Source: a virus | Strand: one strand, 5' to 3' | Virus record (IMG/VR): IMGVR_UViG_3300036766_000670 | Location: 1 to 64,000 of that record | Length of the DNA stretch: 64,000 bases | Shown: positions 9,240 through 45,046 of the stretch, one piece after another | Position numbering within the stretch: the stretch's first letter is position 1 | How the letters are laid out: each line of letters opens with the position of its first letter | Position numbers and translations under genes: made by a program | The notes under the pieces: generated by a model | Told to the model about the DNA's origin: nothing | The model's input: only the letters and a program-made list of their open reading frames with translations | Database searches by the model: none

Positions 9240-11723
9240 ATGGATAAGGAATATCTACAACATATAGCCGGTTCCCTTTACACTAAGGGTCTCGAAGAAC
9301 AAATTGGCGCAAGAGTGAGATCGGGTATGAAAAATATCGGCGCTATGACTGGCAGTCCAATGGAAAGTAGAGAATATACCTATATTCGTTATTCGTTTGA
9401 AAAATTTCTTAAGGGAATAACGCCTGTATTGGATGATTTTGCAGAGAATGTGGATCGACTTCGAAGATTTAAACCATCTCTTACCCCTAATCAAAATAAA
9501 GTGGTGGATTCCATTGTGGATCTCCACAACGTAATTAAGCCACGATACTATGGAGTTACCGTGAATCCACCAGGAAGAGTACAAGATTATCCTCCGGGAA
9601 GATATCCATATATAAAGGGAATTCAAAAACCATTAACTCCTCTTAAAGGAAAACAGCCTACCAAAATAGCTGAAATAATAGATGAAGGAATGCTTGGTCG
9701 ATCTGTAATTATTAATAAAGCCTGGACAAGCCGAAATGCTGGAAAAATCATTGCTGCTTATATAAAAAACATTTACGATAAACAAGTCGCCTTTTATGCA
9801 GAGGTCAAGAAATTAACTGGAAGAACCCCCAACAGAATTCAAACAGTGTTAAGAGATATAAATCGTAAGTGGTCGAATATTTTTGGAAAAGTAAGTGCGA
9901 CGATAAGTACATGGCAGACACAGGCCGAACCTACTGGAAAAACATTCGTTTCTCCTATAGGGGCAAAACCCGAGGGAAAGCCTATTAGTCCAGATCTAAC
10001 TCTTCCGCCAGAAACACCACCAGAAACATCAACCACTCCACCCGCTGTTGCCGCTGTGCTTACTCCAGATAATGGCAAACCCGCTGCCACGGTTCCTGCT
10101 GTTGGTGATGAAATTCCTCCTCCTGCAAGGGGTGATGATTTTGCTTACATAGTAGAAAATGTAGTAAAAATTATTATAGACACTGTTCGAACGGATACTG
10201 AAAGATCAAAAGATTATTTTGAGGCAGAAAGATTACCGAGAACGTGGGAAGAACCTTCTATACATGCTAAAGAAAGAGAGAAAAAAATTCCTACAACAAT
10301 AAAAACGCCTTCTGGCATTACTATTCCTTCAACTGTTCCTATCACCACAACTGCATCAATAATTCCAGATACCATTAAAGAACAGGAAGATGAACCAGAA
10401 AGTAAACCGGAAAAACCAACTGGAAAATTTTTGTACGATTTCAGAAGTGCTTATAGAAAATCAAGAAACTTTGCAATTGAAATGGGGGATCAAAAATCAA
10501 TAACTCTTTCAAGTGGAAAAACAAAAAATATTCGTGTAATTTGGGTTAATAAAGATCAGAAAAATGAAATTCATGTCAAATATCAAGATGCCGCCGAAGC
10601 TGTTGGAGATCAAAAACATGTGTGGAAAGAAATCATATTATTGAATTTCTACGATTATGAAGCCGATAGCAGAAGTGAAGAATGGCAAAAGGATGAAGGA
10701 AACAGATTATTTACTTATATTCATAATGCAAATCCATATGACAATCCATTAGAAGGAGCGAGTAAAGAACGATTGGCAAGACTTCAAAACAAATCTCTAA
10801 TGGACAAATTCAATCGAGCACTTTATGTAGTGATTGATAGGAAAGCAATGGAATTTAGTGCTATGGGGTTAAATATTGGTATTCTTGATGATGAATTGGC
10901 GACTATTTTCCGGTATGACCGTAGTGGAAAAAAACCTCCAATTAATGTTGAAGAACTTTTGAAGTATATTCGTTCTCCAAATGTAGAAACAAGAACTATG
11001 TGGATTGAAAAATTAAAGGATTTAGGATGGTTTGCTCGTAAAGGTTATCCAATTCCAGATCCTAAACAAGATCCTTCTACCTATGAAGGATTGCCAATTC
11101 CGGGTGAGGAAGAACCAATAACCACTCCCGCTCCAGGAACTACAGCCATTCCCACGGGAACTTTGCCAATACCCGATATCGATAAAATTCCCGCCGCAAT
11201 GGAGGCCAGAAGCACTTTACTTAATAAGGGATGGAAGGGAGTTTTTAATGCTATAGGACAAGCAGCTAAAAATCTTGGAGATCGAGCTAAGACAGCTTCT
11301 CCGGATGAATATGTAAAACTTGCCACCGATATATTAAAAGCTTCCAAAGCCGAAAGAGATCCAAAGTATGTATTGGGAATTGAAAATACTAATAATGCAG
11401 TAATGGCTTTGGAAAAATTGGGGTTTAATAAAGTAGTTGCAATAAAAGCTGTAGCAGAAATAGCTAATACAGAGGGAGAAAATCTTACAGATTCCGAATA
11501 TACTGAAAAGGCTCTTAAATTGCTCAAACCCGACAAAAAAACGCTCCCAAGCACATCAGTAGGGGGTCCACCGCCTACATCACCAGTATCTGGAGAACCG
11601 AGTAAATCCGCTGGAGGAGAACCCTCAAAATCACCCGTATCAAAACCGGCAAGCAAAAAAGCTAAAAAGGGAAAGTTGAAAGAAGGTTTCATTAATCCAT
11701 TTCAAGAAACCAACTTTCTCTAA
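9240..11723 (+). CDS. Large Pro/Thr-linker protein with two RuvA C-terminal-like domains; putative head-internal protein
   Basis: NAVMALEKLGFNKVVAIKAVAEI...LTDSEYTEKALKLL plus a preceding weaker copy; TATTTATA upstream. Confidence 0.55.
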   Translation: MDKEYLQHIAGSLYTKGLEEQIGARVRSGMKNIGAMTGSPMESREYTYIRYSFEKFLKGITPVLDDFAENVDRLRRFKPSLTPNQNKVVDSIVDLHNVIKPRYYGVTVNPPGRVQDYPPGRYPYIKGIQKPLTPLKGKQPTKIAEIIDEGMLGRSVIINKAWTSRNAGKIIAAYIKNIYDKQVAFYAEVKKLTGRTPNRIQTVLRDINRKWSNIFGKVSATISTWQTQAEPTGKTFVSPIGAKPEGKPISPDLTLPPETPPETSTTPPAVAAVLTPDNGKPAATVPAVGDEIPPPARGDDFAYIVENVVKIIIDTVRTDTERSKDYFEAERLPRTWEEPSIHAKEREKKIPTTIKTPSGITIPSTVPITTTASIIPDTIKEQEDEPESKPEKPTGKFLYDFRSAYRKSRNFAIEMGDQKSITLSSGKTKNIRVIWVNKDQKNEIHVKYQDAAEAVGDQKHVWKEIILLNFYDYEADSRSEEWQKDEGNRLFTYIHNANPYDNPLEGASKERLARLQNKSLMDKFNRALYVVIDRKAMEFSAMGLNIGILDDELATIFRYDRSGKKPPINVEELLKYIRSPNVETRTMWIEKLKDLGWFARKGYPIPDPKQDPSTYEGLPIPGEEEPITTPAPGTTAIPTGTLPIPDIDKIPAAMEARSTLLNKGWKGVFNAIGQAAKNLGDRAKTASPDEYVKLATDILKASKAERDPKYVLGIENTNNAVMALEKLGFNKVVAIKAVAEIANTEGENLTDSEYTEKALKLLKPDKKTLPSTSVGGPPPTSPVSGEPSKSAGGEPSKSPVSKPASKKAKKGKLKEGFINPFQETNFL

Positions 11724-11814
11724 AATAGTACTTTATACTTCCATTCTTAGTACTTATTATCTCGTAATGAAGTACATTGTACACTAGGATTTTGAGTTGT
11801 CAAGTTTTTATAGC

Positions 11815-12375
11815 ATGAAAAATACAGAATACATTTTATATCTTGATTTAGACGGTGTTCTCGTCAACTTTGAAAGAGGTTTCACAGATCTTTCGGATGG
11901 AATAACCCCCGATGAGATGAAATCCAGATACGGGGAAAAAGTTATGCAAAATCAATACTTAGCCGCCGGATCTTCATTTTGGGCAAACCTTGGATGGATT
12001 GAAGGCGGCGAGGATATTTGGAAAGCTTCAAATGAGTTGTTTGAAAGAGTTTGTATTTTATCTTCTACAGGTACTACTAATCCTATAAAAGGTAAGCCAG
12101 TAATTATGGGTAAAAAACAATGGATAGCTAAAAATATTCCCTCTTTAACCTCGGGTAAAATATTCATAGTATTGGGAAGCCACATGAAAAAAATGCTTGT
12201 CGCTAGAAATAGCATATTAGTTGATGATATGTCGAGCACAGTAGCCGAATGGAATGCGTATGGCGGAATTGGAATACTTCATCATCATAAATACTATCAA
12301 AAAACTATTCAAACATTACAAGATCTCGCTCATCCTCCATCCTTAACTGAACTTGCTAAACGCATTCAGTACTGA
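11815..12375 (+). CDS. HAD-family 5'(3')-nucleotidase-like protein
   Basis: YLDLDGVLVNF motif I, ILSS, GKKQW, ILVDD. ATG at 11815 preferred over TTG at 11797. Confidence 0.85.
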   Translation: MKNTEYILYLDLDGVLVNFERGFTDLSDGITPDEMKSRYGEKVMQNQYLAAGSSFWANLGWIEGGEDIWKASNELFERVCILSSTGTTNPIKGKPVIMGKKQWIAKNIPSLTSGKIFIVLGSHMKKMLVARNSILVDDMSSTVAEWNAYGGIGILHHHKYYQKTIQTLQDLAHPPSLTELAKRIQY

Positions 12376-12393
12376 TTACTGATATTTATAGTC

Positions 12394-15300
12394 ATGAATC
12401 AAGATTTGAAAAAACTCATAAATGAAACCGTAAAAAACTTTTTCGACGAAAATGAAGTGGATGTTTACGGTTCGGGAGAACTTCCTCCGAGCGGAGAAGA
12501 AAAATACGAAAAACAGGAACCCGGAGGTACTATGAGTGCGACAAATTTGACACCGTTGATATACGAAACTAATTTCCGGATTTACAATGAAACGCTTTGT
12601 CCTGATTTATGGGATGCATATGATCATTTAGATGGTCATATAAGAGTAAATCTCTTGCGTATGGCATATGATTTCTATGAAAAGACAGATTTCAAAGCTC
12701 CAATTGTAGATGTCTATTTGATGGGATCTATTGCTAATTATAATTGGACTCCCGAAAGTGATGTTGATATTCATATAATCATTGACCATGATAAACTTCA
12801 AATGCCATCTGATACTATCTTAAGCGCAATCAAAGCTGCATGTTCTTTATGGAATAACGAGCATCATGTAGCGGTTAAGAGGCATAAGGTTGAGATGAAT
12901 ATTCAAAATATGAAAGAAGTTAAACCTCATGTCACCGGCATTTATTCTCTTGTTAAAGATCAATGGGTAAGAAAACCCGTTCTTCAATCTCTTTCTTTTG
13001 ATAAAACCTTTATTCAATCTATGTACAAAGGAATGAAAGAGTATCTCAAGTCTGCTATCAATAGCGGAAATCGACATGCTATGAAGGCGGTAAAAAAATA
13101 TATAGATGCTTTTCGTCAGTATGGACTTGATACCCGTGGTGAATTGAGTGTTGAAAATATCGTATTCAAAATTCTTCGTGCCAAAGGTTTGATTGAAATG
13201 TTGAAAACTGCTATAACAATGACATATGATAAAGAGATGACAGTAAGAGAGGCCGAAAAATTGAATGAAAGTAAAGAACCAGAATCTGCCATTGAAGATT
13301 TGATGGAAGAGCACGGTGTAGTGAGCCGTTGTTTGCTTATTTATGAAGAATTGATTCGTAAATTGGAGACAGAGAAGGAAATGTCTTTTGACATTGTTCA
13401 TGATATAGCCGAAGTAATCCGTCATCACGTAGAAGATCACCACGAAAAAGTAGAGGAGAAGTATGTCTTTGCGCTTTTCAAAGGAAAAGATAAACTGGGA
13501 AAAGTAGTAAAAATTCTTACAGAACAGCACAAAGCGGGCAGGAAATTAACTGGAAAAATACTTAATCTTTCTTCTAAATCGTACTCAAAAGAAACTCAAA
13601 ATCAGTTGTTTCAAGAGTGTAAAAAATTTGTCCATATGTATGGCCCGCATAAAGCATGGGAAGATACGGTAGTATTTCCCGCCGTTCGTAAAGCTTTGAC
13701 GGACAACGAGTTAGAAAAATTCAATGAAAAAATGGAAGAAGCCGAAAAAGAAGGCGATCCGAAAAAATTCATACAGGAAGTTGAAAAAATAGAAAAGAAA
13801 CTCGGTATTTACAAGATATGTTGTTTTACTCCTGAAAAGGACAGAAAGACAATGTTGGAGGTTAGACAACAAGACATTAAATCCCATCTTCCTTCACCAG
13901 AAAACATCAAGCTTATTGATGGTCAAAAGCTGGATCTTAGCCGATTAACCTTAGATCATTTGAAGGCATTACGGGCTAAAGCGGTAAGATTTTGGAAGGC
14001 TGCAAGCAAGAAAAAAGATCATGAAGAAACTCTTTGGGCACTGGCAGAGTTTGAAAGATATAACTTCGAAATAAAAAGGAGAATGAGATACATAAATGCT
14101 CCTCTCATAACCGAAGAATCAAAAAAATTTCCACCTTTTACTCTTGTTTTCGACAGTTCAGATGTAGCAAAAGGTGCTGTAAAGATTATGTTGGGTAATG
14201 AATGGTTTGGTAATATCTATAAACCTCTCGAAGGATGGGGTGAATATACTGGAAAGTGGATTTTCAATGCTGCCAGCAAAGAAGCAATGAAAATGAAGTT
14301 TCCAGCTAAGGGATATAATAGTCCGGGAGAATTGCTTCGAGATTTAAAAAAATGGTATAGTCAACGATTTATAACCGAGAAACAAGAAGTTTTTGACATT
14401 AAAGGTCCGGATGAATTGTCTCCTAGAAATCAAGTTGAGCTTGATCAGTTAGTTCGTAATTCTGAAAACATTATATCCGGTAAAGAGCTTTATTATATTT
14501 ATTTAGTCAATGATCATGTTGCGGGTGCTCTTTATACATCTTATCGTGATCGAGTATATAGTTTTAATGTTGTTGTTAGTAAAGAATATCGTCAGAAAGG
14601 TATTGGAGTAAGAATGATAAGGGATGGATTAGATGAATATTTCAACAATATTCTGGAAACCGATCCGGATGCGAAACTGGAACTTAATATTGTAAATCCT
14701 TCTATAATAGATTATCTTAAACGAATAGGGATGGAAGTGGAAAAGAGTGTTGGAGGACGTGTTATAATGTTTTATTCAAAAGGAAAAGAAAGTTCTATAG
14801 ATGAAAATGGGGGAGGGGGAATAGGATATTTTAGTAAAGAACTTGAAGCAGATATTCAACATCTAATTACAACCAGTGAGGATAGTATAGAGTCTGGTGA
14901 GCCGGTTCTTACTCGTGCTCAAGCAATTCGGTACTTAATGCAGGACATGGATGATCCTGGGCATTATTCACATGAGCATAGAAGGGAACTTCAAAATTTT
15001 GGTGTTAAGATCGGAATTTTTGAACCTTGTACAAGAGAAGAATTGGATAATATTGTAGTTATAGGTGGAAGAGGGCGAAAATATGACTTTAAACGAGGAA
15101 ATTTATACTATAGATTTAATTCTTGGAAACCTTTAATAGGGCACGAAGATCCAGTAGATGAAAATAATGAAGATTTAAAAAGTGATTTTGATTTGGCTGA
15201 ACAAGGAGATACTGTTTCTGTTGTAAGAAGAGCGATAGAGAAGCTGGGAGGAATGGAAAATTTCAAAGCGTGGTTTATGGGATGGATTTCAAAAGAAAAA

Positions 15301-15819
15301 ATTCCATATAGACAAATAGATTCTTCGGGACAATCGCATACTGTAGAATTTTTTGCGAGAAAATATTTAAAAGGCGAGATAGATTTGCGTCGTATTAGTG
15401 AAGGTTATGGAGCGGGTATTCCAGGCACAGATAAGCGTTTAGGTATTCCAGGTGAAAGATGGAGAATTAGAAGCAAAGACGCTCCAAAAACTCCAAAGAT
15501 GCCAAGCGACGAAGAGTTATCAATAACTATAGATCTCGATGAAATTGTTGATAGTACATTGGAATTACTATTCGAATCTCCTAATATGGAAACTCTTAAG
15601 AAAAACAGAAAAACTCTTTCTGATGAAGAAAGAAGAATAGTTATGGATTCGGGAGCGGTATGGCATCATAGTCCAAATGGAAAAGAAACTCCTGGGGTTT
15701 GGAAATCTATAGTCAAAGGAAAAACATGGTACGTTTGTAATACTCACAGAGCTTATCAATGTAAGCCAACTCTAAGGGGAGCCATAAAAGCTTTCGAATT
15801 TATAGAGACAACCTCGTAA
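12394..15819 (+). CDS. Multidomain protein: Pol-beta nucleotidyltransferase + hemerythrin + GNAT + unknown modules
   Basis: GSIANYNWTPESDVDIH (GS..DxD); EEH..HHEKVEE..EQH..HKAWED (hemerythrin); VVVSKEYRQKGIG (GNAT motif A). Confidence 0.85.
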   Translation: MNQDLKKLINETVKNFFDENEVDVYGSGELPPSGEEKYEKQEPGGTMSATNLTPLIYETNFRIYNETLCPDLWDAYDHLDGHIRVNLLRMAYDFYEKTDFKAPIVDVYLMGSIANYNWTPESDVDIHIIIDHDKLQMPSDTILSAIKAACSLWNNEHHVAVKRHKVEMNIQNMKEVKPHVTGIYSLVKDQWVRKPVLQSLSFDKTFIQSMYKGMKEYLKSAINSGNRHAMKAVKKYIDAFRQYGLDTRGELSVENIVFKILRAKGLIEMLKTAITMTYDKEMTVREAEKLNESKEPESAIEDLMEEHGVVSRCLLIYEELIRKLETEKEMSFDIVHDIAEVIRHHVEDHHEKVEEKYVFALFKGKDKLGKVVKILTEQHKAGRKLTGKILNLSSKSYSKETQNQLFQECKKFVHMYGPHKAWEDTVVFPAVRKALTDNELEKFNEKMEEAEKEGDPKKFIQEVEKIEKKLGIYKICCFTPEKDRKTMLEVRQQDIKSHLPSPENIKLIDGQKLDLSRLTLDHLKALRAKAVRFWKAASKKKDHEETLWALAEFERYNFEIKRRMRYINAPLITEESKKFPPFTLVFDSSDVAKGAVKIMLGNEWFGNIYKPLEGWGEYTGKWIFNAASKEAMKMKFPAKGYNSPGELLRDLKKWYSQRFITEKQEVFDIKGPDELSPRNQVELDQLVRNSENIISGKELYYIYLVNDHVAGALYTSYRDRVYSFNVVVSKEYRQKGIGVRMIRDGLDEYFNNILETDPDAKLELNIVNPSIIDYLKRIGMEVEKSVGGRVIMFYSKGKESSIDENGGGGIGYFSKELEADIQHLITTSEDSIESGEPVLTRAQAIRYLMQDMDDPGHYSHEHRRELQNFGVKIGIFEPCTREELDNIVVIGGRGRKYDFKRGNLYYRFNSWKPLIGHEDPVDENNEDLKSDFDLAEQGDTVSVVRRAIEKLGGMENFKAWFMGWISKEKIPYRQIDSSGQSHTVEFFARKYLKGEIDLRRISEGYGAGIPGTDKRLGIPGERWRIRSKDAPKTPKMPSDEELSITIDLDEIVDSTLELLFESPNMETLKKNRKTLSDEERRIVMDSGAVWHHSPNGKETPGVWKSIVKGKTWYVCNTHRAYQCKPTLRGAIKAFEFIETTS

Positions 15820-15832
15820 TCAAAAGAAAAAT

Positions 15833-16679
15833 ATGATTACATTGAAATCATTATTGTGCGAGCAAGTGAAGAAAATATCTCTTCAAAAGGCTGTTGATAA
15901 TAAACTTTTTGGTCCTGTTTATCACGGAACAAACCAAGAAGCCCTTTCTAAAATAGATAAAGAGGGTTTCAAAGTGATTATGGGACTTCATGGTACATCG
16001 GGTATGTCACATGGATATGAATATGAACCATATGGATATTTTACTGATGTTCCTCCCCCAATTCATCATCTTGGGTTCGGCGTGTATTTTACTACTGTCA
16101 AAGCTATTGCTAAAAGATTTGCTGGTGGTACAGCAAAAGGAATGAAAGCATATTTCTTGGATATTCCAAAGAAGGAAACAATAAATTTTGCTTCACCGAG
16201 AAAAATGATGAAATGGTGGATTGAAAATGGATATGATCCGGAATTGGCTAAACGTGGCGAAGGTGGTAGGTACATGGCAACGGCAAAAATGACCGAACAA
16301 TTGAAATCCAAATACGAGGGGGTGTGGTTCAAAGGAAAAGGAATACACAGACTTTTGGATGGTGATCAAGTAGTTGTATTTGATCCTAAAGACATTTATG
16401 AAATAGATTTGTCTTTATCGAAGGAATTTGACCTTGGTGCTAAAGTTAAAGCCAAAATTGACATAAAATATACTGATAAGGAAGGAAATGTATATGGAAG
16501 TGTTGTTCCTATTGGAACAACAGGGATTATAGTTAAAAGATACGATGTCAAAAAAAATGGCGAAAGAATATCCTCTCTATTGGGCAAAAGATGCCGAGCG
16601 ATATGCATTTGATGTAAAGTTCAAAGTTGGTGGTGAAAGACAAGTAAAGGATACTTGGGTGGAACCTTTGAATTTATAA
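15833..16679 (+). CDS. ADP-ribosyltransferase-like protein with SH3-like C-terminus (frameshift at A8, 16550-16557)
   Basis: PVYHGT...GF...LGFGVYFT...A..FA and QVVVFDP. The frame-0 stop is at 16612; the +1 frame continues MAKEYPLYW...FDVKFKVGGERQVKDTWVEPLNL to 16679. Confidence 0.65.
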
Positions 16680-16752
16680 CTTTTTATTTTTCTCGCTTAT
16701 TTCTCCAGGAGGCATATATTTATAATCAGAAGCATAAATAAGGATTCTATCT

Positions 16753-17244
16753 ATGGCAGACTTACTAACAAACAACGAGATGTTCTTCACGATTTGGGAA
16801 CCCAAAACGAAGAATCGTTTCCTCATGTATATTGACGGCGTTCCAACGTACCTCATTCGTAAAACCGACCGTCCAAAATGGACCCAAGATCGTCAAACGA
16901 TTGATTATATCAACTTGCAATGGTTCTACAAGGGTAAGACCAAGTGGCAGGAAATTGATATTGAACTTTACGATCCCGTTGTTCCTTCCGCCGCCCAAAC
17001 AGTTTTTGAATGGTTCCGTTTGTCGCATGAATCTGTGACTGGGCGTGATGGATATCAAGATTTCTATAAAAAGGAAGTTACTATTGATATCCTCGGTCCT
17101 GTCGGTGATAAAGTTGAAGAATGGACTCTGAAAGGTGCTTTTCCAACTTCTTTTGATGGTGGGACAATGGAATGGGTCAATGATGCTGAACCAGTACTAG
17201 TTACTCTTAGGCTATCATACGATTATGCGATCCTCCAATATTGA
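16753..17244 (+). CDS. Tail tube protein (T4 gp19-like)
   Basis: EPKTKNRF, YKGKTKWQ.I.I.LYDP, YKKEVTI.ILGP, EEWTLKGAFP, L.LSYDY. Confidence 0.92.
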   Translation: MADLLTNNEMFFTIWEPKTKNRFLMYIDGVPTYLIRKTDRPKWTQDRQTIDYINLQWFYKGKTKWQEIDIELYDPVVPSAAQTVFEWFRLSHESVTGRDGYQDFYKKEVTIDILGPVGDKVEEWTLKGAFPTSFDGGTMEWVNDAEPVLVTLRLSYDYAILQY

Positions 17245-17359
17245 TGTATGATTATGCTGTATTGATTAGAATCGCATAATCAAAGTGAACTTTTAGAAAT
17301 TTTCTTGTTATATAATAGAGAAATGAACTTTCCGGCGATCTATGTCATACTTATTTAAT

Positions 17360-17447: not shown

Positions 17448-17448
17448 T

Positions 17449-17901: not shown

Positions 17902-17931
17902 TATTTATAAAGTGAAAAGGATAAATCATAT

Positions 17932-18612
17932 ATGAAGCAAAAACTTTTGGAATATCTCGTTAGGCAATGTGTACGAGAAGTATTGGCCCAAGTGAGAGAG
18001 CAGGATGACGAAACTAAAGGTGCCCCATCACCACCAGCGGCGGGCCTGGGAACTGCCGATACTCCGGCGGTTCCAAAACCGAAAGATACTACGCCAGAAG
18101 AACCATCTGAACCAGAAACTCCACCCACCAGCTTGAAAGGAGCGATATTTGTTAATCCAAGAGATAAATCAAAACTATCTCCAATCGGGCCTCTTCCTTT
18201 TAATATAAGTGATGCCGCTTTGGAAAGAAAACTTTATGATATATCAACAAGTTACATAGGACCGGAGGTAAAAGTTTCTCTTTCTGCATTTCGAATGGTT
18301 AAAGATGCCATTAGAAATCCAGGCTCAACTGTTTACTTATACTTTGGGAAATTTGACCCAGAATCAGAGGAGATATTTTTGATGGCAGATAAAAGTTTGC
18401 AAGCAGCCAAAGATGGTACTGTTCCTCCAGCAGAACTTACTAGAACTCCTGTTTCTACTGCTTCTCCAAGTCAGTTTGATCCAATTACAGCAGAACCGGA
18501 ACAATATGCTCAACAAATGACTAGTGGTGGTATGTCTCCAAGACGTGGGATTGATGAACGAATAGTCAAAGCCATAAAGAAAATAGTCAGAGAAGTATTG
18601 ACACGAAAATAA
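17932..18612 (+). CDS. Hypothetical, putative head-internal protein
   Basis: Leader LLEYLVRQCVREVL...VREQ, with a similar C-terminal IKKIVREVL. Confidence 0.55.
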   Translation: MKQKLLEYLVRQCVREVLAQVREQDDETKGAPSPPAAGLGTADTPAVPKPKDTTPEEPSEPETPPTSLKGAIFVNPRDKSKLSPIGPLPFNISDAALERKLYDISTSYIGPEVKVSLSAFRMVKDAIRNPGSTVYLYFGKFDPESEEIFLMADKSLQAAKDGTVPPAELTRTPVSTASPSQFDPITAEPEQYAQQMTSGGMSPRRGIDERIVKAIKKIVREVLTRK

Positions 18613-18613
18613 G

Positions 18614-18979
18614 ATGAACCAAAAAAATCTTCAAGAACTCATCCGTTGTATAACTCGGGAAATATTGGAGGAGTATATGGATACTCCTACTAAAATTGGT
18701 AGTATTTCTGATAAAAGCGATGAAGATGATAAGGATATTTCTGCCATGACCGCTGTTGAAAAAGCAAAGAAAAGGCGTGAGGAAGAAAAAGCGAGACAGG
18801 ATCAAATTAGAGGGGGTAAGCTGGAATTGAATGCTACAAAAAAACAAACCGATTATTTTGGGCAGCAACTTAAACAGAATAGATTAAAACAGGCTGCTCA
18901 GAGAAAAGTTCTTCAAAATCTTCAAGCAGATAAAGACATTAGTGTTGGTGGTGCAGGTAGTATTGGTGTCAAAATATAA
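18614..18979 (+). CDS. Hypothetical coiled-coil, putative head-internal protein
   Basis: Leader LQELIRCITREILEE. Confidence 0.55.
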   Translation: MNQKNLQELIRCITREILEEYMDTPTKIGSISDKSDEDDKDISAMTAVEKAKKRREEEKARQDQIRGGKLELNATKKQTDYFGQQLKQNRLKQAAQRKVLQNLQADKDISVGGAGSIGVKI

Positions 18980-29619: not shown

Positions 29620-30369
29620 ATGAGTAACGTTGTTGACCGAGTATTTGCCGAAGTCTGCCTAGACGAAAGAGTTTCAGACGGCATATTCCAAATGGAAAAT
29701 GAAGAGCATATGAATGCTCTTCGTGACTATTTTGTTAAAAAAGGCATTCCTCAGGAAGCCGCCATCCAGGTGACTAATCGCATGGTTGAAGGCAAGTATC
29801 CAGAACGACAAGCTTATCGAACGGAAGATGGTATTTTAGTAACATGGCCTTCTCCACAACATAAGAAAAGGGCTATGGCTGAACATCCAGGTAAGTATGT
29901 TGAAGAAAACCCATTCCCCAAAAGACCATCGGAAAAAGAGCCTGAGAAAAGGGAACCTATCAGACGTGAACCGCCTCCTAAAGAAGAACCGAAAGATAAA
30001 GATAAAGATGAGGATGATAAATCTTTGCCAAGATCTGGTGGTAGCGTATTTGGTGGTGAAAAAATAACTCAAGGTGATAAAAAACTGGAAATAGAACCGC
30101 CTCGGGGCGAGGAAAAGCCAGAACCACCAGCCTCGGCTCCTCCAGTACCCACTATTGCACCAAGAACTCCAGAAAGAATTGCGGCAGAAAAAGAGGTTGT
30201 AAAGCAAATTCTCGGTACTGATAACAACGCACTCGCAAATATTACTGGCCCGCTGAAAGAAGAAAATAAAGAATTACTGCGTTATCAATTAAACGAATTA
30301 TATAAAAAAGCGGACGCATTGGGGTTTAAGGAAGCTGTCACATTTTTGACTCCTTATGTAAAGCCTTAA
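29620..30369 (+). CDS. Hypothetical Pro/charged protein
   Basis: TATTTATA at 29601 and AAAGGA before the ATG at 29620. Confidence 0.6.
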   Translation: MSNVVDRVFAEVCLDERVSDGIFQMENEEHMNALRDYFVKKGIPQEAAIQVTNRMVEGKYPERQAYRTEDGILVTWPSPQHKKRAMAEHPGKYVEENPFPKRPSEKEPEKREPIRREPPPKEEPKDKDKDEDDKSLPRSGGSVFGGEKITQGDKKLEIEPPRGEEKPEPPASAPPVPTIAPRTPERIAAEKEVVKQILGTDNNALANITGPLKEENKELLRYQLNELYKKADALGFKEAVTFLTPYVKP

Positions 30370-35571: not shown

Positions 35572-35582
35572 AGAATTATATT

Positions 35583-36407: not shown

Positions 36408-36420
36408 AAGTGGATATTTT

Positions 36421-37218
36421 ATGACTACTATTGATATAAGACATGGAGATTTCTTGGTGAGAGAAAAAGATATACTTGATAATTCGATAGACCTTATTGT
36501 AACAAGTCCTCCTTATAATGCGAAACAATTTTATACAAACTATAATGATAACCAGGAATTCACAATGTATTATGCTTGGTTAAAGGCGGTATGCAAGGGA
36601 ATGTATAGAATAATCAAACCAAATTCAAGTATTTTCATAAATATCTGTGACATAGGAATATCTAATGGTGAAGCAAGCGGAATTCATAAGATTGGCAACC
36701 GAGGAAATTTTTATGTGGAGCCGACACATATTGTGATTATTGGAGAGATGATATCGCTCGGTGCTCAATATTTACATCCGATTTTTTGGAAGAAACCGAG
36801 CAATCATAATAGTCAGTTTGGAGCAAATGCTCGTTTTTGTGGAACATATCCATATCCTAAAAATTGCCATGTTCCATCAGAAATAGAATACATTCTTCAT
36901 TTTAGGAAAAATGGCATTTACAAAAAAGTGGATAGAGATAAGAAATTGAAGTCTAAAGTTTCAAAAGAGAGATGGTTACAATTATCATCTCAAGTGTGGG
37001 AATTCAATGGGGTTCAGAGAAAAGATCACCCGGCACCATTTCCATTAGAACTTCCTCTTCGATGTATTGAGGGATGGTCTTTTATAGAAGATTTGGTGCT
37101 TGATCCATTTGTGGGAATAGGAACTACAGCATTGGCTTGCAAGAAACTTAACAGAAACTTTATCGGATTTGACATCTCTGATGAGTACTGTCGTATCGCT
37201 CGGCAAAGTATAGAATAA
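36421..37218 (+). CDS. DNA methyltransferase, N4C/N6A beta class
   Basis: IVTSPPYN, HPAPFP.ELP, VLDPFVGIGTT, FIGFD. Confidence 0.92.
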   Translation: MTTIDIRHGDFLVREKDILDNSIDLIVTSPPYNAKQFYTNYNDNQEFTMYYAWLKAVCKGMYRIIKPNSSIFINICDIGISNGEASGIHKIGNRGNFYVEPTHIVIIGEMISLGAQYLHPIFWKKPSNHNSQFGANARFCGTYPYPKNCHVPSEIEYILHFRKNGIYKKVDRDKKLKSKVSKERWLQLSSQVWEFNGVQRKDHPAPFPLELPLRCIEGWSFIEDLVLDPFVGIGTTALACKKLNRNFIGFDISDEYCRIARQSIE

Positions 37219-37235
37219 ATTAGCTATCAAATAGT

Positions 37236-37279
37236 AAAGTTCCTTGCCAGAATTTATGATGCTACCGGCAAGGAACTTT
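37236..37279. terminator. Hairpin between convergent genes
   Basis: AAAGTTCCTTGCC / GGCAAGGAACTTT, a 13-bp inverted repeat. Confidence 0.65.
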
Positions 37280-37298
37280 CTGTAATTTCTAAGAAATA

Positions 37299-38327
37299 CT
37301 AACTTTTCCACCCTCTTGGGGGAATTGCGTATTTGCTATCTTTGAATGGTTCGGGAAAACTGACTTGTTTTTCATTTCCCATTGGAACACCCATTTCAAT
37401 CAAAGATTGTCGACTGGCATAATAGATATTTGTAGTAAATGTAAGTATGCCTTTTTCGAATTCAACTTCAATAACTCTACTCTCCTTTGCTTCACCAAAG
37501 CGGGTTCCCATGTCGAATCCCCTGGGTTCAACAGTGGAGCAGAAGTTAACGGTAACAGGAGTTGCCGAAGTCTGTTCGATGCATCCAAGGGTTTGACTAC
37601 TATTGAGGGATTGACCTTTAACAGCACTAGTTCCGGTAGAGGACAATTTATTGAAACTTGTTGCATTACGAGAACGAAGAGGAGCACTTACGCCCCCTCT
37701 TGCTCCGATTTTGCTAGAATGATAATTATTTGTTCTACTATCGGCAAGAGAATTCATTGTGTATGTATCGGAACTTCCCATTCCAGCGGTTCCACTATAA
37801 GTATTACTACACCAAATAGTCGGAGGAGGAGTGTATGAAGTAGTCCAAGGAGACTTCCAGGGCCAATATGGACGATCCCACCAATAATCCCAATCATTGT
37901 AACGATTGTGGTGATGATGATGTTCTTCTCTAATTATAATCGGTTGTGGTTTTTCCTTTTCTTGAAAAATACGAACGCCGATTACCCCGACATTTCTCTC
38001 AGAGCCATCCTCTTTGGAGGCGGCATAAGAGCGATTTTTGTAATCAAAAACGAATTTAGCAACAGTTTCATTGGAAACACGAAACCCATCGAGCTTCAAC
38101 GAACCATATCCGTTTATGACGTACCCATTTCCGTTTTCTGTTGCTGCTTTTCCGTTGAGGGCATCCAATCCATCAACAGATGTAACGGCAAGAATACGTT
38201 GCCAGGTGTTGTTTTTGATTTCGATACTGTACTCAGAGCCATGTTTGGCTTCTACGAACAGTTGACCATTGTGATTATATTGACGGCAACGATTGCCGTT
38301 GACAAGTATATTAACTTCGTAAGACAT
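37299..38327 (-). CDS. Hypothetical protein
   Basis: 342 aa with SVDGLD, GFR, GVIGVRIFQE, MGTRFG; GAAAGGA RBS and TTGACA-17-TATATA promoter (38431-38403). Confidence 0.75.
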   Translation of the reverse strand: MSYEVNILVNGNRCRQYNHNGQLFVEAKHGSEYSIEIKNNTWQRILAVTSVDGLDALNGKAATENGNGYVINGYGSLKLDGFRVSNETVAKFVFDYKNRSYAASKEDGSERNVGVIGVRIFQEKEKPQPIIIREEHHHHHNRYNDWDYWWDRPYWPWKSPWTTSYTPPPTIWCSNTYSGTAGMGSSDTYTMNSLADSRTNNYHSSKIGARGGVSAPLRSRNATSFNKLSSTGTSAVKGQSLNSSQTLGCIEQTSATPVTVNFCSTVEPRGFDMGTRFGEAKESRVIEVEFEKGILTFTTNIYYASRQSLIEMGVPMGNEKQVSFPEPFKDSKYAIPPRGWKS

Positions 38328-38532
38328 ACGATTTTCCTTTCTTTAGTTGAGGTTCTAAAGCTTTGGCCGCTCATACTGCGGATTTCAGCTTTGTTACGCC
38401 AATATATAACAGACCACAACGAAAATGTCAAGCTTTTTCCGGATAAAAATAACCAATCTTGAAAGTTACGATTTATTATAAGTTTACATTGGGATGATAG
38501 TCGGGTAGAATGCAAGACACAATAAAAGAAGT

Positions 38533-39018
38533 ATGGCATTGTTCAATAATAAATTTGCGTCTATTAGACAAGATTGGAATACGCCAAGACCGTTGTTTGA
38601 CAAATTGAATAAGGAATTTAACTTTGAATGGGATCTGGCGGCAACCAAAGAAAATGCTTTATGCAACAAATTCTATTCTAAAGAAAATGATGGACTGAAA
38701 CAGAAATGGAGTGGAAATTGCTGGTGCAATCCTCCATATGGAGATAGAAATAGTAAAATGGTAGATTGGATTAAGAAATCTTACAATGATACACAATCCA
38801 ATCTCAATTTAACAGTTGTTATGTTAATTCCCAATAGATCTAATACTAATTGGTTTGTTAATTATATTGCTAAATCGCATGAAGTTAGATTTATTACCGG
38901 GAGGCCCAGATTTGGAAATACCATACATGGTTTACCACAACCTCTTTTAATTGTGATTTTTAAGAAATCCGAAACGCCTACAAAATGGTGTTGTTGGAAA
39001 TATGAGGAAAAAATATAA
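38533..39018 (+). CDS. Phage N6-adenine DNA methyltransferase
   Basis: WNTP..LF..L..EF.F..DLAA, WCNPPY, VMLIP.R, EVRFI.GR; TTTACA-17-TAGAAT promoter (38483-38511). Confidence 0.88.
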   Translation: MALFNNKFASIRQDWNTPRPLFDKLNKEFNFEWDLAATKENALCNKFYSKENDGLKQKWSGNCWCNPPYGDRNSKMVDWIKKSYNDTQSNLNLTVVMLIPNRSNTNWFVNYIAKSHEVRFITGRPRFGNTIHGLPQPLLIVIFKKSETPTKWCCWKYEEKI

Positions 39019-39071
39019 ATTTTCTTGGAGTTTTTTGCTTGGAGTAATATATTTATAGAAAGGAGTATATT

Positions 39072-39227
39072 ATGGGGCGAAAATTAAAATACAAAACAAA
39101 TGATGAACAACTTGAAGCACAACGAAGATGGAGACGAGAATGGTATTACCGAAATAAATTCCAAGTCAATAAAGAGCGAATGCGAAAATACTATGTTGAT
39201 AAAAATATGGACAAGAAATTGCCCTGA
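39072..39227 (+). CDS. 51-aa basic protein preceding an endonuclease gene
   Basis: MGRKLKYKTNDEQLEAQRRWRREWYYRNK...; AAGGAG RBS and TATTTATA upstream; not in the ORF track. Confidence 0.6.
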   Translation: MGRKLKYKTNDEQLEAQRRWRREWYYRNKFQVNKERMRKYYVDKNMDKKLP

Positions 39228-39810
39228 ATGTGGAAAAGAAATATTTCATTCTAGAAGAGACCATCGGAATTATTTTCAGAAAATAAATGCTAGATGTAAA
39301 TCTTGTTCTAAAAAGTCAGAAAATAATCCCCAATATGGAAAACTGTTGACTGATGTATGTCGTAAGAAAATAAGTAATAGGTTAAAGGGGAAAGTCCCAC
39401 GAAATATTGAACTTATACTGTGGAGAAATCATCATAAAATTTTTACCAATGACACTCGGTATAAAATGAGACTGTCTCGTATAAAATATTTACAGTCATG
39501 TTTAGGTCAAATTTTTCCAACATATAACAAAGTTGCTTGTAATTATTTTTCTCTACTCGATAAACAGCGGGGATGGAATGGACAGTATGCTACGAACGGT
39601 GGTGAGTATTTTATAAGAGACCTTGGATATTGGGTAGATTATTATGAACCAATGTTAAATATAGTAATTGAATATGATGAACCTAAACATTATAGGAATG
39701 GGAAGTTATTAGAACGGGATATTCGCCGAATGAAAGAAATACAGAATTTTCTAAAATGTGATTTTTATAGATATAAAGAAGAAACGAAAGAATTGAAAAA
39801 ATATGAATGA
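39193..39810 (+). CDS. Homing-type PD-(D/E)XK endonuclease with Zn-finger/NUMOD-like N-terminus
   Basis: RNCPECGK, CKSC, ENNPQYGK...KKIS..LKG, YWVDYY...IVIEYDE..H. Confidence 0.7.
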   Translation: MLIKIWTRNCPECGKEIFHSRRDHRNYFQKINARCKSCSKKSENNPQYGKLLTDVCRKKISNRLKGKVPRNIELILWRNHHKIFTNDTRYKMRLSRIKYLQSCLGQIFPTYNKVACNYFSLLDKQRGWNGQYATNGGEYFIRDLGYWVDYYEPMLNIVIEYDEPKHYRNGKLLERDIRRMKEIQNFLKCDFYRYKEETKELKKYE

Positions 39811-41200
39811 AAATGAAACTAATACCTTTGTAAAATTTGGAAAAATTTTCCAGAATAAATGCCTTGCTGCGTTGATATCTGACCGTGCGTTTTTAGAAAG
39901 AATACTGGATATTTTATCACCAGATTTTTTTGAGACGGACGCTCAACGTTGGCTTGTCAAATTCATTATGGATTATTTCCCGAAATATCGTGAAATACCC
40001 ACAGCAGAAGTATTTGCCATCGAAATTCAAAGATTACCCGATACGGATGGTATAATGAGAGAGGCAATGAAAGAGCAAGTTAAATCAGCATATCGTCAAA
40101 TGGCTGCGGCAGATATTGTATATGTCAAAGAAGAGTTTCTTGAATTCTGCAAGAATCAAAAATTGAAATCGGCGCTTTACGAAGCAACCCGGTTACTTAA
40201 AATAGCCGATTATGCTGGCATTTGGAATATTATCAATGAAGCCAGCAAAGCTGGTATGGAAAGAAACATTGGCCACGAGTATTTGAAAGAAACTGATGGT
40301 CGTTTAAGTGAAGAAGCAAGAGAAGTCATCAAAACGAATTGGGATACTATTGATATTCATCTTGACGGCGGGTTGGGTAAAGGTGAACTTGGATTTGTTG
40401 TAGCACCAGCGGGAAGCGGAAAGACGTGGTTTCTTACTCATATAGGAGCGGAAGCAATGCGTCAGGGCAAAACTGTTCTACATTTTACAATGGAACTTAA
40501 TGAGAAGTATGTTGGACGCAGGTATGATGCATACTTTTCGGGCTATGCTTTTCAGGAAGTTCGGAATCATCCGGATAAAGTCAAAGAGACATTGAAAGAT
40601 ATCACGGGAAAACTGTTCATTAAATACTTCCCGATGAATACCGCCACGGCATTGACTTTGAAGATGCATGTGGAACGTCTCCAACTTATAACAGGAGTCA
40701 AGATTGATCTGGTCATTGTGGATTATGCAGATTTGCTTCGTCCTTCGGTGATTTACAAGCACCCAAGTCTATATGAAGAGGGTGGCAGTATTTATGGCGA
40801 GCTTCGAGGAGTTGCTGGCGAGTTACAACTTCCTGTCTGGTCTGCATCACAGGCGAATCGAGGAGCACACGAAGAGGAATTGGTCAGCGCACTCAATGTT
40901 GCTGATAGTTACAAGAAAATCATGATTGGTGATTTCATTATGTCTCTGGGACGAACGACTGAACATAAACTTGCTGGAACCGGAACTGTTGCTATAATTA
41001 AAAGTCGATTTGGTTCTGATGGTCCGGTATATGCTTGTTCGTTCGATGCTTCTATGGGAGCCATTAAAATTTACGATACGAAGTCGGTAGAAGGAATGGA
41101 AATTTTAAATAGGACGAAGAGTGCCCAAGAAAGCATTAAAGATATTCTTCGTAAACGTTGGAAAGAAACGCATGATAATAACAACGGTACGTCGGACTAA
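39803..41200 (+). CDS. DnaB-like replicative helicase (T4 gp41-like)
   Basis: GGLGKGEL..VVAPAGSGKT, TMEL, IVDYADLL, WSASQANR, KSRFG. Confidence 0.93.
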   Translation: MNENETNTFVKFGKIFQNKCLAALISDRAFLERILDILSPDFFETDAQRWLVKFIMDYFPKYREIPTAEVFAIEIQRLPDTDGIMREAMKEQVKSAYRQMAAADIVYVKEEFLEFCKNQKLKSALYEATRLLKIADYAGIWNIINEASKAGMERNIGHEYLKETDGRLSEEAREVIKTNWDTIDIHLDGGLGKGELGFVVAPAGSGKTWFLTHIGAEAMRQGKTVLHFTMELNEKYVGRRYDAYFSGYAFQEVRNHPDKVKETLKDITGKLFIKYFPMNTATALTLKMHVERLQLITGVKIDLVIVDYADLLRPSVIYKHPSLYEEGGSIYGELRGVAGELQLPVWSASQANRGAHEEELVSALNVADSYKKIMIGDFIMSLGRTTEHKLAGTGTVAIIKSRFGSDGPVYACSFDASMGAIKIYDTKSVEGMEILNRTKSAQESIKDILRKRWKETHDNNNGTSD

Positions 41201-41314
41201 ATATCATTCCAAATTTTCATAATGCAATTGGAAAGAAAATATTTTGGTTGCGTTACGAATTAGAAATATCTACTTATACTTTGCTAACCAAAAAAGAATT
41301 TCAATAGAGTCAAT

Positions 41315-43939
41315 ATGGATACACCTATTATTAAGTTTGAAGATGTAAAAAAGTTATCTACAGAAGAATATTTTCAGAATAATCAATTTAGTATAGATGC
41401 ATTCAAAGAGAAATATGCTCTAGTGCCGGACGAGACATACGTATATGCGGTAAAACGTGTTTGTGATTTCGTTGCTTCGGTTGAAAGGACAGAAGAATTA
41501 AGACAGTGTTGGAGTGCCCGTTGGTTTGATGAGATTTACAAAGATTGGTGGCACCCCGCCGGTTCTATTATGCAAGGTGCGGGGTCGGGAAGAAAGATTT
41601 CGCTTGCTAACTGCACAACTATATCTCTTGGAGTAAAACGAGACGATGAAGAATGGGATAGTCTCGAAGCAATCATTAAAAATGCCGCTTACACGATTGC
41701 AAAATGTGCTGCCTATCGTCAAGGCTTAGGCATAGATTTCTCTTGTCTCAGGCCAAATGGTACAAAAGTATTAAACTCTGCGAATCAATCTACAGGAGCC
41801 GTACACTGGATGGAGTTTGAGGATAAGATCGGTTATTTTGTAGGGCAAAAGGGGCGGATTCCCGCTATGTTATTTAGTATTTCCTGTGATCACCCCGATG
41901 TCGAGGAATTTATTCAAATCAAAAGTGATTATACTAAGATTCAAAATGCTAATATCAGCGTACAATGTACTGAAAAGTTCTATAAAGCAGTAGATAATGA
42001 TGAAGATTGGGAATTGAAATTTGAAATTCCTGCTGTAAAACGTGGAGATAAAGTGTATATTGATGTTCATAGTATTGATATGAATAGTACTCGTGAAAAG
42101 GACACTGGCCGCTTTTATAAAATCGTCACACATGATCGCAAGCGTGAGGTATTCACAAAAACAGTTAAAGCTCGCAAATTGATGGAGCTAATTGCCAAAA
42201 ATATGCACGCTAATGCAGAACCTGGTATTCAAAATATTGACATTGCTCGAAAATACAGCAATAGTGATGCTCTCTACGATCCCACCAACGAATATGATTC
42301 TCGTATTCTATCTACAAATGCCTGTTCAGAACAATATCTATCCCGAGAATCTTTGTGTGTTTTAGCATCAATTAACTGTGGGAAATTTTCCACAAAACGA
42401 GAGATTTACATGGGGCAATTGGAAAAGATTTCCAAATCAATCAACCGATTTTTAGATAATGTTAATGAATGTGAATTAGTTCACCAAACTTATGCCACTC
42501 CCCATCAAGAATTGGCAATTCGCAAACTTCGTCGAAACGGCTCTGGCATAACTAATATCGCCGCATGGTTATTCAAACGAGGAGTCATTTATGGAACCGA
42601 AGAAGGCAATAATGCTGTTGAAGAATTCATGAAATGGTATAACTATTGGTTGTACGTTTCAACAGAGGAACTCGGAAAAGAAAAGGGAAATTTTGGGTTA
42701 TTTAACAAAGATAAGTGGCAAAATGCTCCTTTCATTGTTCGGATGATGAAAGAATCGGAGAAACTCAACGCCGAGTTTAAGACGCCTCTTATCAAAGGAA
42801 CTCATGCTCGCAATGTTACAGTAAGTTCTATTGCTCCTACGGGCACCCTGTCTCTAATGTTCCGTGACTTTGTACTAAGTTATGGAATAGAACCTGCCTT
42901 TTTTATGTATTTCTGGAAAAGGACTCGTATGAATGGAAATTACGAGTACTATTTCTGTGTTCCACGAGTAGTACGTGATATGTTTGTAGAGGCGGGGTGC
43001 TCTATACCTATGGAATCTGATTGTATCAAGGATGATTGGAATGGTTCCAAGGGAAAGGCGATTGCGGCATTTGTTGAAGAACATAGACATAAGTTCAAGT
43101 TCAAGGAATCTATTGAAATTGATCCTATGAATAAACTTGAACTTATGTCTCGGGTGATGAAATGGGTAGATAGTTCGATTTCGGTTACTTATATGCTTCC
43201 TATTGGTTCTACATGGAAAGATGTTTATAACTTCATTCTCGAAGCTCATAAAAAAGAAGTCAAAAGTATTGCCGCTTTTCCTGACAAAAAAATGTATGGT
43301 ATTGTGTCAAGTTTTCCATTTAGAGATTTGGCATTTAAACTCAAAGATGAGGGGGTTATCATGCACCATCAAAATTTTTCAGATGAAGAATTGAAAGAGT
43401 TGAATCTTTCTCGTGAGACTATTCAATCAGGAGCTATGACTCGCCCAAAGCGTCTCCAGACATTAGATGCCGATATTTATATGGTAAGTGTTAAGGGAGG
43501 AAAATATTGTGTGGTGGTAGGACTCCAGAATGATCAACCTTATGAAATTTTTGGCGGGCATCTTAACGGTCTGGGGTTGAAATCAAACTATAAAAAAGGA
43601 AAAATTACTAAAGTTAAGCGAGGTCAATACGCCCTTGAGTTTGACGATATTTTCATTGAGGATTTTTCGAAACAATTCACTCCTACAGAACAAATATTAT
43701 TTAGGATGGCATCACTTCAAATGAGACATGGTATTCCTATTCGTTTCATTGTTGAACAATTACAAAAAGCGACCGATGATATGACAAGTATGGCATCTGC
43801 CGCAGCAAGGGTTCTCAAGAAGTATATTGAAGATGGAGAAACAGTAAGTGGTCAAAAGTGTCCATCATGTAATTCAGATGAATTAACTTATATAGATGGA
43901 TGTGTTTCTTGCTCCTGTGGATGGTCAAAATGCAATTAG
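41315..43939 (+). CDS. nrdJ: Ribonucleotide reductase, probably class II (B12-dependent), with C-terminal TSCPD/Zn-ribbon region
   Basis: SLANC, HPDVEEFI.IK, NANISV, AEPGI, TNACSEQ, CVLASIN, IAPTGTLS, GIEP, terminal CPSC...GCVSC.CGWSKC. No ATP cone, and no beta subunit nearby. Confidence 0.85.
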   Translation: MDTPIIKFEDVKKLSTEEYFQNNQFSIDAFKEKYALVPDETYVYAVKRVCDFVASVERTEELRQCWSARWFDEIYKDWWHPAGSIMQGAGSGRKISLANCTTISLGVKRDDEEWDSLEAIIKNAAYTIAKCAAYRQGLGIDFSCLRPNGTKVLNSANQSTGAVHWMEFEDKIGYFVGQKGRIPAMLFSISCDHPDVEEFIQIKSDYTKIQNANISVQCTEKFYKAVDNDEDWELKFEIPAVKRGDKVYIDVHSIDMNSTREKDTGRFYKIVTHDRKREVFTKTVKARKLMELIAKNMHANAEPGIQNIDIARKYSNSDALYDPTNEYDSRILSTNACSEQYLSRESLCVLASINCGKFSTKREIYMGQLEKISKSINRFLDNVNECELVHQTYATPHQELAIRKLRRNGSGITNIAAWLFKRGVIYGTEEGNNAVEEFMKWYNYWLYVSTEELGKEKGNFGLFNKDKWQNAPFIVRMMKESEKLNAEFKTPLIKGTHARNVTVSSIAPTGTLSLMFRDFVLSYGIEPAFFMYFWKRTRMNGNYEYYFCVPRVVRDMFVEAGCSIPMESDCIKDDWNGSKGKAIAAFVEEHRHKFKFKESIEIDPMNKLELMSRVMKWVDSSISVTYMLPIGSTWKDVYNFILEAHKKEVKSIAAFPDKKMYGIVSSFPFRDLAFKLKDEGVIMHHQNFSDEELKELNLSRETIQSGAMTRPKRLQTLDADIYMVSVKGGKYCVVVGLQNDQPYEIFGGHLNGLGLKSNYKKGKITKVKRGQYALEFDDIFIEDFSKQFTPTEQILFRMASLQMRHGIPIRFIVEQLQKATDDMTSMASAAARVLKKYIEDGETVSGQKCPSCNSDELTYIDGCVSCSCGWSKCN

Positions 43940-43975
43940 ATCGGGGTTTGGAAATAAATAACTATATTTATAGGC

Positions 43976-44230
43976 ATGATTAAATCTCTGCTTCTATTTC
44001 ACATCGACAAACCTATATTTGGCAACGGAACGTTTTTTGGATCTTATGGTGTAATAGCCGCCAGTTGGTTTCATTTGATTCCGTCTTTTTTCGGCATCGT
44101 AGGAGCAATAACTGGGGGAATAACGGGTATTATAATTCTCACCGCTCAAATTTACAATAATGGGGGATTCAGGGGGGTATGGTATAAAATAAAACATTTG
44201 TGGGAAGGAGATAGTCCCAAATCGTTGTAA
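43976..44230 (+). CDS. Small membrane protein, holin-like
   Basis: Hydrophobic 84-aa ORF; TATTTATA upstream. Confidence 0.4.
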   Translation: MIKSLLLFHIDKPIFGNGTFFGSYGVIAASWFHLIPSFFGIVGAITGGITGIIILTAQIYNNGGFRGVWYKIKHLWEGDSPKSL

Positions 44231-44311
44231 AATGTGAAGAAAATTTCATTTGACAAAATAGAGCGGCTTTTCTAGGCGGGGAGATATATTTATAAGAGGC
44301 GATCTATTCAT

Positions 44312-45046
44312 ATGAAACCAGAGACATTTAGACAACTTATCCGAAGAGTCCTCAACGAGGAAGTTGAAAAAACCAGCGTTACCGGCAAGACTACATTTAA
44401 CCGTGTGCCAGAAATTGTACATGGTGAGGATTACAAAGAGATCATGCCTAATAAGCGTGCTGATATGAGCAAGGATAATTTACTCGCTGATATGGACAAA
44501 GTAGTTAAGGCAATTGATCCCGAGTACATAGTTGTATGGGACGATCACGATGATATTTCAATTTCTGCAAGAGATTTATTCCGTATTCGAATCATTCCTA
44601 AATGGGAAGGTAATTTTTGCATTGAAGCAATGACACGCAATGAAGATCGCATTTATATCACTGGCCAGACATGGGAACAAGTTAAACAGTTTGTAAAAGT
44701 TAATCTAAAAGACTCTAAAACCAAGGTTGATGTGGCTTATGATAAATCAAAGAAGAATGTAACGGCTGATGAAACTTCGGCTCCAGACAAAGGGATGCCT
44801 CAGAAGGATAAGCCAAATATTTTGCCACTTACTAATGAACCTCCGAAAGAAACCAAAAACAAAGAGAGAGATTACACCGAAAAACAAGTTAAGAAGGAGA
44901 AAGATTTACCAGAAAAACCAATGAAAGAGGTTGAAGATTTCGAGAGACAAAAAGAACATAGAGTAATGAGTCCGCTTAAAATTCGTAGAGAAAGAACCAA
45001 ATATCCGGTCAAAAAGCCGAATACTACTTTAACAGTTAAGTTGTAA
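44312..45046 (+). CDS. Hypothetical, putative head-internal protein
   Basis: Leader FRQLIRRVLNEE; TATTTATA upstream. Confidence 0.55.
   Translation: MKPETFRQLIRRVLNEEVEKTSVTGKTTFNRVPEIVHGEDYKEIMPNKRADMSKDNLLADMDKVVKAIDPEYIVVWDDHDDISISARDLFRIRIIPKWEGNFCIEAMTRNEDRIYITGQTWEQVKQFVKVNLKDSKTKVDVAYDKSKKNVTADETSAPDKGMPQKDKPNILPLTNEPPKETKNKERDYTEKQVKKEKDLPEKPMKEVEDFERQKEHRVMSPLKIRRERTKYPVKKPNTTLTVKL

What the first reader, a model, noticed from the sequence alone, without database searches (positions are those of the whole stretch)
9240..45046. Shared N-terminal amphipathic leader on unrelated proteins: candidate capsid-targeting signal
Seen: MNQDLKKLINETVKNFFDE (12394), MKQKLLEYLVRQCVREVL (17932, echoed at its C-terminus as IKKIVREVL), MNQKNLQELIRCITREILEE (18614), MKPETFRQLIRRVLNEE (44312), MITLKSLLCE (15833) and MSNVVDRVFAEVCLDE (29620). 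The rest of each protein is unrelated, and each gene lies directly behind TATTTATA or behind a gene that does. Known: T4 internal proteins use a short Glu-terminated N-terminal targeting peptide that gp21 removes. Inference: this is a portable L-x-x-L-I-x-x-x-(V/I)-x-E-x-L-x-E address tag defining the injected proteome, possibly usable for engineering.
Basis: partly seen in the sequence, partly recalled or inferred. Interest (0 to 1): 0.8.

Follow-up and report, generated by a model that had tools for sequence, protein, structure and literature searches.

The report
T4-style capsid-targeting tags, jumbo phage
Five unrelated late proteins of this uncultured jumbo phage, among them a probable ADP-ribosyltransferase and a three-enzyme fusion protein, start with short conserved tags that look like phage T4's capsid-targeting propeptides, so they are probably loaded into the phage head; there is no virion evidence yet.

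Summary
The window is the first 64 kb of a 78.6-kb fragment (about 27% complete) of an uncultured T4-related jumbo myophage. All six quoted N-termini exist. Inside this one genome their likeness is barely above chance, and they do not fit one consensus.

Comparison with relatives supports five of the six, in two classes.

- **Class B**: M-I-K/T-L-K-x-L-L/I-x-E, on 15833, with a one-residue-longer form on 12394. It sits at Met1 in 18 of 19 occurrences and heads at least 7 unrelated families in the clade. Its layout matches the T4 tags: hydrophobic at 4, 7 and 8, Glu at 10, like gp24's MAKINELLRE.
- **Class A**: L-x-x-L-I/V-R-x-φ-φ-R/K-E-V/I-L, on 17932, 18614 and 44312. It also starts small genes beside the prohead protease gene in related phages.

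A complete, syntenic 368.8-kb relative encodes a T4 gp21-type protease. Tagged genes cluster in head modules. Homologues swap class A for class B.

Gene 29620 is not supported. Packaging, cleavage and injection are inferred, not shown. Earlier notes from this scan (unchecked AI notes, not independent evidence) record the MIKLKDLLKE tag on other DNA. No paper in the searched library names it.

The parts
15833..15862 (+). Class B tag MITLKSLLCE (residues 1-10) of the probable ADP-ribosyltransferase gene 15833-16612
   Evidence: M1, L7 and E10 are invariant in 7 homologues. The same decapeptide type heads at least 7 unrelated families in the clade and 56 cargo clusters in IMG/VR. Its layout equals T4 gp24 MAKINELLRE and the CTS MKTYQEFIAE.
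15833..16612 (+). Cargo: probable H-Y-E type ADP-ribosyltransferase (259 aa)
   Evidence: Pfam ART-PolyVal, E=1.6e-6, 29.4 bits, just under the 31.2-bit cut-off. Of 7 family members, 3 hit ART-PolyVal and 3 hit PARP catalytic. The AF2 model was too poor to use (pLDDT 50).
12394..12426 (+). Class B-like tag MNQDLKKLINE (residues 1-11; the helix continues to FFDE at residue 19) of the polyvalent enzyme gene
   Evidence: The regex [LF][KQ]x[LV][IL][NDT][EK][TM][VI] is N-terminal in 7 of 7 hits. In relatives the leader stands on a separate upstream ORF with a Zn-ribbon, and the NTase protein then starts at query residue 59.
12394..15819 (+). Cargo: 1141-aa multi-enzyme (polyvalent-type) protein: nucleotidyltransferase, hemerythrin, GNAT acetyltransferase
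   Evidence: Pfam NTP_transf_2, Hemerythrin and Acetyltransf_1; phrog_36119.
17932..18000 (+). Class A tag MKQKLLEYLVRQCVREVLAQ followed by V-R-E (residues 1-23) of gene 17932-18612
   Evidence: Among the 80 homologues found (31 aligned), L6, E7, C13 and V17 are invariant; K2, L5, R11, E16, Q20 and E23 are at least 90% conserved. A hypervariable insertion site follows directly. AF2 gives a helix at 2-28 and a disordered stretch at 27-64.
18556..18609 (+). C-terminal helix of the 17932 protein (ERIVKAIKKIVREVLTRK), an echo of the class A tag
   Evidence: Conserved as IKKMVNEILDxK in the family. AF2 helix at 209-225. Matches the class A regex.
18614..18673 (+). Class A tag MNQKNLQELIRCITREILEE (residues 1-20) of the small Ser-rich protein gene 18614-18979
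   Evidence: It is the most conserved part of 19 homologues. The 17932 and 18614 families give the top-scoring pair of 630 N-terminal profile pairs.
44312..44368 (+). Class A tag MKPETFRQLIRRVLNEEVE (residues 1-19) of gene 44312-45046, which lies among replication genes but has its own TATTTATA
   Evidence: Seven homologues keep F/L-Q-x-L/M-I-R-R-V/I-L-x-E-E-V-E. Its profile pairs with the 17932 and 18614 families rank 9 and 10 of 630. TATTTATA at 44287.
29620..29667 (+). MSNVVDRVFAEVCLDE of gene 29620-30369: not supported as a member of either tag class
   Evidence: Median similarity to the other leaders. Conservation runs on evenly into the protein, with no linker. It fits the hydrophobic-x-Glu layout only loosely.
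12383..12390 (+). TATTTATA late-promoter-like octamer before 12394 (others at 9224, 17902, 29601, 44287)
   Evidence: 23 copies against 9 expected; also found before the sheath, tube and baseplate genes.

Best explanation
The leaders are capsid-targeting propeptides of the T4 type. A short N-terminal amphipathic segment docks a newly made late protein onto the scaffold core of the assembling prohead. A gp21-family prohead protease then cuts after the Glu of a hydrophobic-x-Glu triplet at the end of the tag. The mature protein stays in the head and can leave with the DNA.

Two tag classes are in use.
- Class B is a decapeptide, M-I-K/T-L-K-x-L-L/I-x-E. It sits on the probable ADP-ribosyltransferase (15833). 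A one-residue-longer form sits on the nucleotidyltransferase-hemerythrin-GNAT fusion protein (12394).
- Class A is a 20-residue helix, L-x-x-L-I/V-R-x-φ-φ-R/K-E-V/I-L, followed by φ-x-E. It sits on 17932, 18614 and 44312.

Shown: the tags are N-terminal, conserved, carried by unrelated proteins, and swapped between homologues. Tagged genes sit in head modules, and a gp21-type protease is present in the complete relative. Inferred: docking, cleavage, retention in the head and injection.
For: 1. Class B sits at Met1 in 18 of 19 hits among 937 ORFs and heads at least 7 unrelated families in the clade.
84 of the 92 have no upstream in-frame Met. Synonymous codons vary. The cargo falls into 56 clusters. 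Several loci carry two or three tagged genes close together.
3. Published T4 data give propeptides of 10-19 aa, targeting residues 4 and 7, processing residues 8 and 10, and gp21 cutting after L/I-X-E (PMC9026906). The CTS is MKTYQEFIAE (PMC8442874). The T4 genome gives gp24 MAKINELLRE, gp22 MLKEQLIAE and gp21 MNEPQLLIE.
4. PF03420 (the gp21 protease family) is present in 4 of 5 large tag-bearing records. One of them is G005, a complete 368,758-bp record syntenic with this window.
5. 33 of the 80 loci hold head or tail genes, and the tagged gene often directly follows the protease gene. In G005, by my count from the listings, 6 of about 15 tagged genes lie in the 66-100 kb head region.
6. A scoring matrix built only from the class A leaders of the window's clade was run on independent loci. 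25 of its top 40 hits start within the first 15 residues, against 6.6% expected. They mostly fall on small genes beside the protease gene and on the conserved gene after portal.
7. The protein encoded after the protease gene carries MIKLKDLLNE in IMG/VR phages. Its Mel-JY01 homologue carries a class A-like helix instead.
8. The tagged genes share the TATTTATA motif with virion genes.
9. T4 Alt-type ADP-ribosyltransferase genes are likewise encoded next to baseplate genes, yet the protein is packaged in the head (PMC5512222).
Against: - There is no virion proteome, N-terminal mapping or protease assay for this clade.
- The window's own fragment lacks the head module and protease, so the link runs through a relative with 36-72% amino-acid identity.
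- The window's tagged genes lie in the tail and baseplate region, not the head module.
- In-genome statistics are weak.
- Class A leaders are amphipathic helices, a common feature, and their cleavage site is ambiguous (E16, E20 or E23).
- One complete tag-bearing record gave no PF03420 hit.
- The number of IMG/VR hits alone is close to what AT-rich DNA could give by chance. The argument rests on where the hits sit in ORFs, not on the count.
Confidence: 0.65

Rival explanations
1. The leaders are ordinary N-terminal amphipathic or coiled-coil helices used for oligomerisation or co-assembly. They are not cleaved and carry no address. Class A proteins would be structural prohead-core or other virion parts in their own right.
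For: Class A has a heptad-like hydrophobic stripe. It recurs at the C-terminus of the 17932 family. It also resembles residues 15-28 of the conserved protein encoded after the portal gene. The in-genome likeness is near chance.
Against: This does not explain the strict Met1 position, the conserved Glu three residues after a Leu or Ile, the decapeptide on at least 56 unrelated cargo clusters, or the swap of class A for class B on homologues.
Confidence: 0.15
2. The tags load cargo into the tail tube or baseplate, as the N-terminal signals of extracellular contractile injection systems do, rather than into the capsid.
For: In the window, 12394, 15833, 17932 and 18614 lie between the sheath, tube and hub genes.
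Against: In relatives the same tags are concentrated beside the protease, scaffold and major capsid genes. The layout matches T4 head propeptides. T4 Alt-type genes also sit near baseplate genes, yet the protein is a head protein.
Confidence: 0.1
3. The resemblance is chance plus selective reading. Alternatively, it is a nucleotide-level feature: AT-rich 5' coding sequence that favours translation initiation.
For: Controls inside the genome nearly match the observed set scores. MIKLK is encoded by very AT-rich codons. The IMG/VR hit count is close to an AT-rich chance expectation (my estimate).
Against: The tags are N-terminal in independent genomes. Leu, Lys and Glu positions use varied synonymous codons. 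Several loci carry two or three tagged genes close together. The Cys and Arg of class A are conserved. The first 60 nt of the six genes are at most 55% identical.
Confidence: 0.07

Closest known systems
Phage T4 capsid targeting sequence (CTS) and head propeptides: IPI, IPII, IPIII, Alt, gp24 (Mullaney and Black 1996; reviewed in PMC9026906)
   Same: An N-terminal tag of 10-20 residues on unrelated proteins. Hydrophobic residues at 4, 7 and 8 and Glu at 10. The tag ends in L/I-x-E, the gp21 cutting site. A gp21-family protease is present in the lineage. The cargo includes an ADP-ribosyltransferase, as with Alt. Class B MIKLKxLLxE is nearest to gp24's MAKINELLRE.
   Different: A different consensus. 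Far more cargo families: at least 56 clusters in a truncated scan, against a handful in T4. The tags sit on large enzymes, including a 1141-aa multi-enzyme protein. There is a second, 20-residue helical class. The host phage is a jumbo phage of roughly 290-370 kb. Nothing has been tested experimentally.
Phage P1 DarB N-terminal packaging signal (PMC9024508)
   Same: An N-terminal signal of at most 30 residues is sufficient to load a very large enzyme, or a reporter, into the capsid.
   Different: P1 Dar proteins share no consensus tag and no Glu-specific cleavage was reported. Here the tag is a shared, recognisable motif.
Giant-phage head propeptides (phiKZ, 201phi2-1, SPN3US; PMC5694885)
   Same: Jumbo phages with a diverged gp21-like protease and many processed internal or ejection proteins. 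Paralogues share identical N-termini.
   Different: Those propeptides are mostly over 100 residues and are cut at S/A-x-E. Here the tags are 10-23 residues with Leu or Ile at the third position before the cut, which is the T4 pattern.
Polyvalent proteins of phages (Iyer et al. 2017, PMC5512222)
   Same: Several unrelated enzyme domains in one late protein encoded among virion genes, predicted to be packaged and injected.
   Different: That work did not define an N-terminal addressing peptide ('N-terminal signal' has no occurrence in its main text). Here a candidate tag is attached.

Membership tests
T4-type capsid targeting sequence / gp21-processed propeptide | Located at the extreme N-terminus, 10-20 residues long | tested here: met
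   Class B at Met1 in 18 of 19 hits. Class A N-terminal in 82 of 93 hits; the rest are the C-terminal helix of the 17932 family or hits preceded by an upstream in-frame Met or start, read here as start miscalls. All 4 class A hits and all 4 strict class B hits in G005 are N-terminal.
T4-type capsid targeting sequence / gp21-processed propeptide | Ends in L/I-x-E, with hydrophobic residues at 4 and 7 (targeting) and at 8 plus Glu at 10 (processing) | tested here: met
   Class B has L4, L7, L/I8 and E10. This compares with MKTYQEFIAE and MAKINELLRE. The layout is enriched at offsets 0 and 1: 16 hits against 0.78 expected per offset. For class A the site is ambiguous.
T4-type capsid targeting sequence / gp21-processed propeptide | The same tag on otherwise unrelated proteins | tested here: met
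   At least 7 families in the clade, 56 clusters in IMG/VR, and the window's six proteins are unrelated to each other.
T4-type capsid targeting sequence / gp21-processed propeptide | The genome encodes a gp21-family (Peptidase_S77) prohead protease | tested here: inconclusive
   Absent from the 78.6-kb fragment and from four partial relatives. Present in the complete syntenic relative G005 and in 3 other large tag-bearing records.
T4-type capsid targeting sequence / gp21-processed propeptide | The tag is necessary and sufficient for packaging, and is removed in the prohead | not testable with these tools
   Needs virion proteomics, a protease assay and reporter fusions.
Giant-phage (phiKZ/SPN3US) long propeptides | Propeptides mostly over 100 residues, cut at S/A-x-E | tested here: not met
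   The tags are 10-23 residues and have Leu, Ile or Val at the third position before the Glu (literature).
Alt-like injected ADP-ribosyltransferase (gene 15833) | ADP-ribosyltransferase catalytic fold | tested here: inconclusive
   ART-PolyVal at 29.4 bits, below the 31.2-bit cut-off. Of 7 homologues, 3 hit ART-PolyVal and 3 hit PARP. The AF2 model had pLDDT 50. No hit by sequence against PDB.
Polyvalent protein (gene 12394) | Two or more unrelated enzymatic domains in one polypeptide, encoded among virion genes | tested here: met
   NTP_transf_2, Hemerythrin and GNAT domains over their Pfam cut-offs, between the sheath and tube genes.

The most novel reading that the evidence does not exclude
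A two-class address code operates across a very large uncultured group of T4-related phages. The MIKLKxLLxE decapeptide and a 20-residue helix are interchangeable on homologues. The helix mimics the N-terminal helix of a conserved core protein encoded after the portal gene. Together they load dozens of unrelated enzymes into the head, including ADP-ribosyltransferases and multi-enzyme fusion proteins. If so, the packaged, and probably injected, proteome of uncultured phages could be read from sequence alone.
Probability: 0.3. Interest if true: 0.7.

Novelty: new member of a known kind. Interest (0 to 1): 0.5.

Why it matters
If the tags work as in T4, they mark from sequence alone which proteins an uncultured phage carries in its capsid. 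Here those would include a probable ADP-ribosyltransferase and a nucleotidyltransferase-hemerythrin-acetyltransferase fusion. That gives a shortlist of candidate host-takeover or anti-defence effectors. It would also give a short, portable peptide for loading proteins into phage heads of lineages other than T4. The size of the cargo repertoire (dozens of families) would show that T4's few internal proteins are a small sample of a much larger strategy.

Tried and rejected
- **All-against-all scoring of N-termini within the genome.** Pairwise and best-set scores lay only 1-2 SD above controls, so the genome alone does not establish the motif.
- **HMMER local search with a 16-24 residue leader profile.** It gave fragmentary alignments. 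I replaced it with fixed-window scoring matrices and regexes.
- **Cultured phages.** tblastn of 17932 and 15833 against them found no match. The 12394 protein hit only through its NTase domain.
- **Other collections.** The IMG/VR scan with 17932 alone found nothing. The genome-contig scan gave one 12-kb contig filed under an archaeal MAG.
- Metagenome loci are not searchable as whole records.
- **Head genes.** PF03420 and PF07068 are absent from the five partial genomes.
- **Structure.** The AF2 model of the ADP-ribosyltransferase family was too poor to use. The AF2 model of the 17932 protein is good for the domain at 70-170, but Foldseek against PDB found nothing.
- **Literature.** No paper in the searched library contains MIKLKDLL, MIKLKSLL, MIKLKELL or MIKLKNLL, and none mentions Mel-JY01.
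- **29620.** Rejected as a tagged gene.

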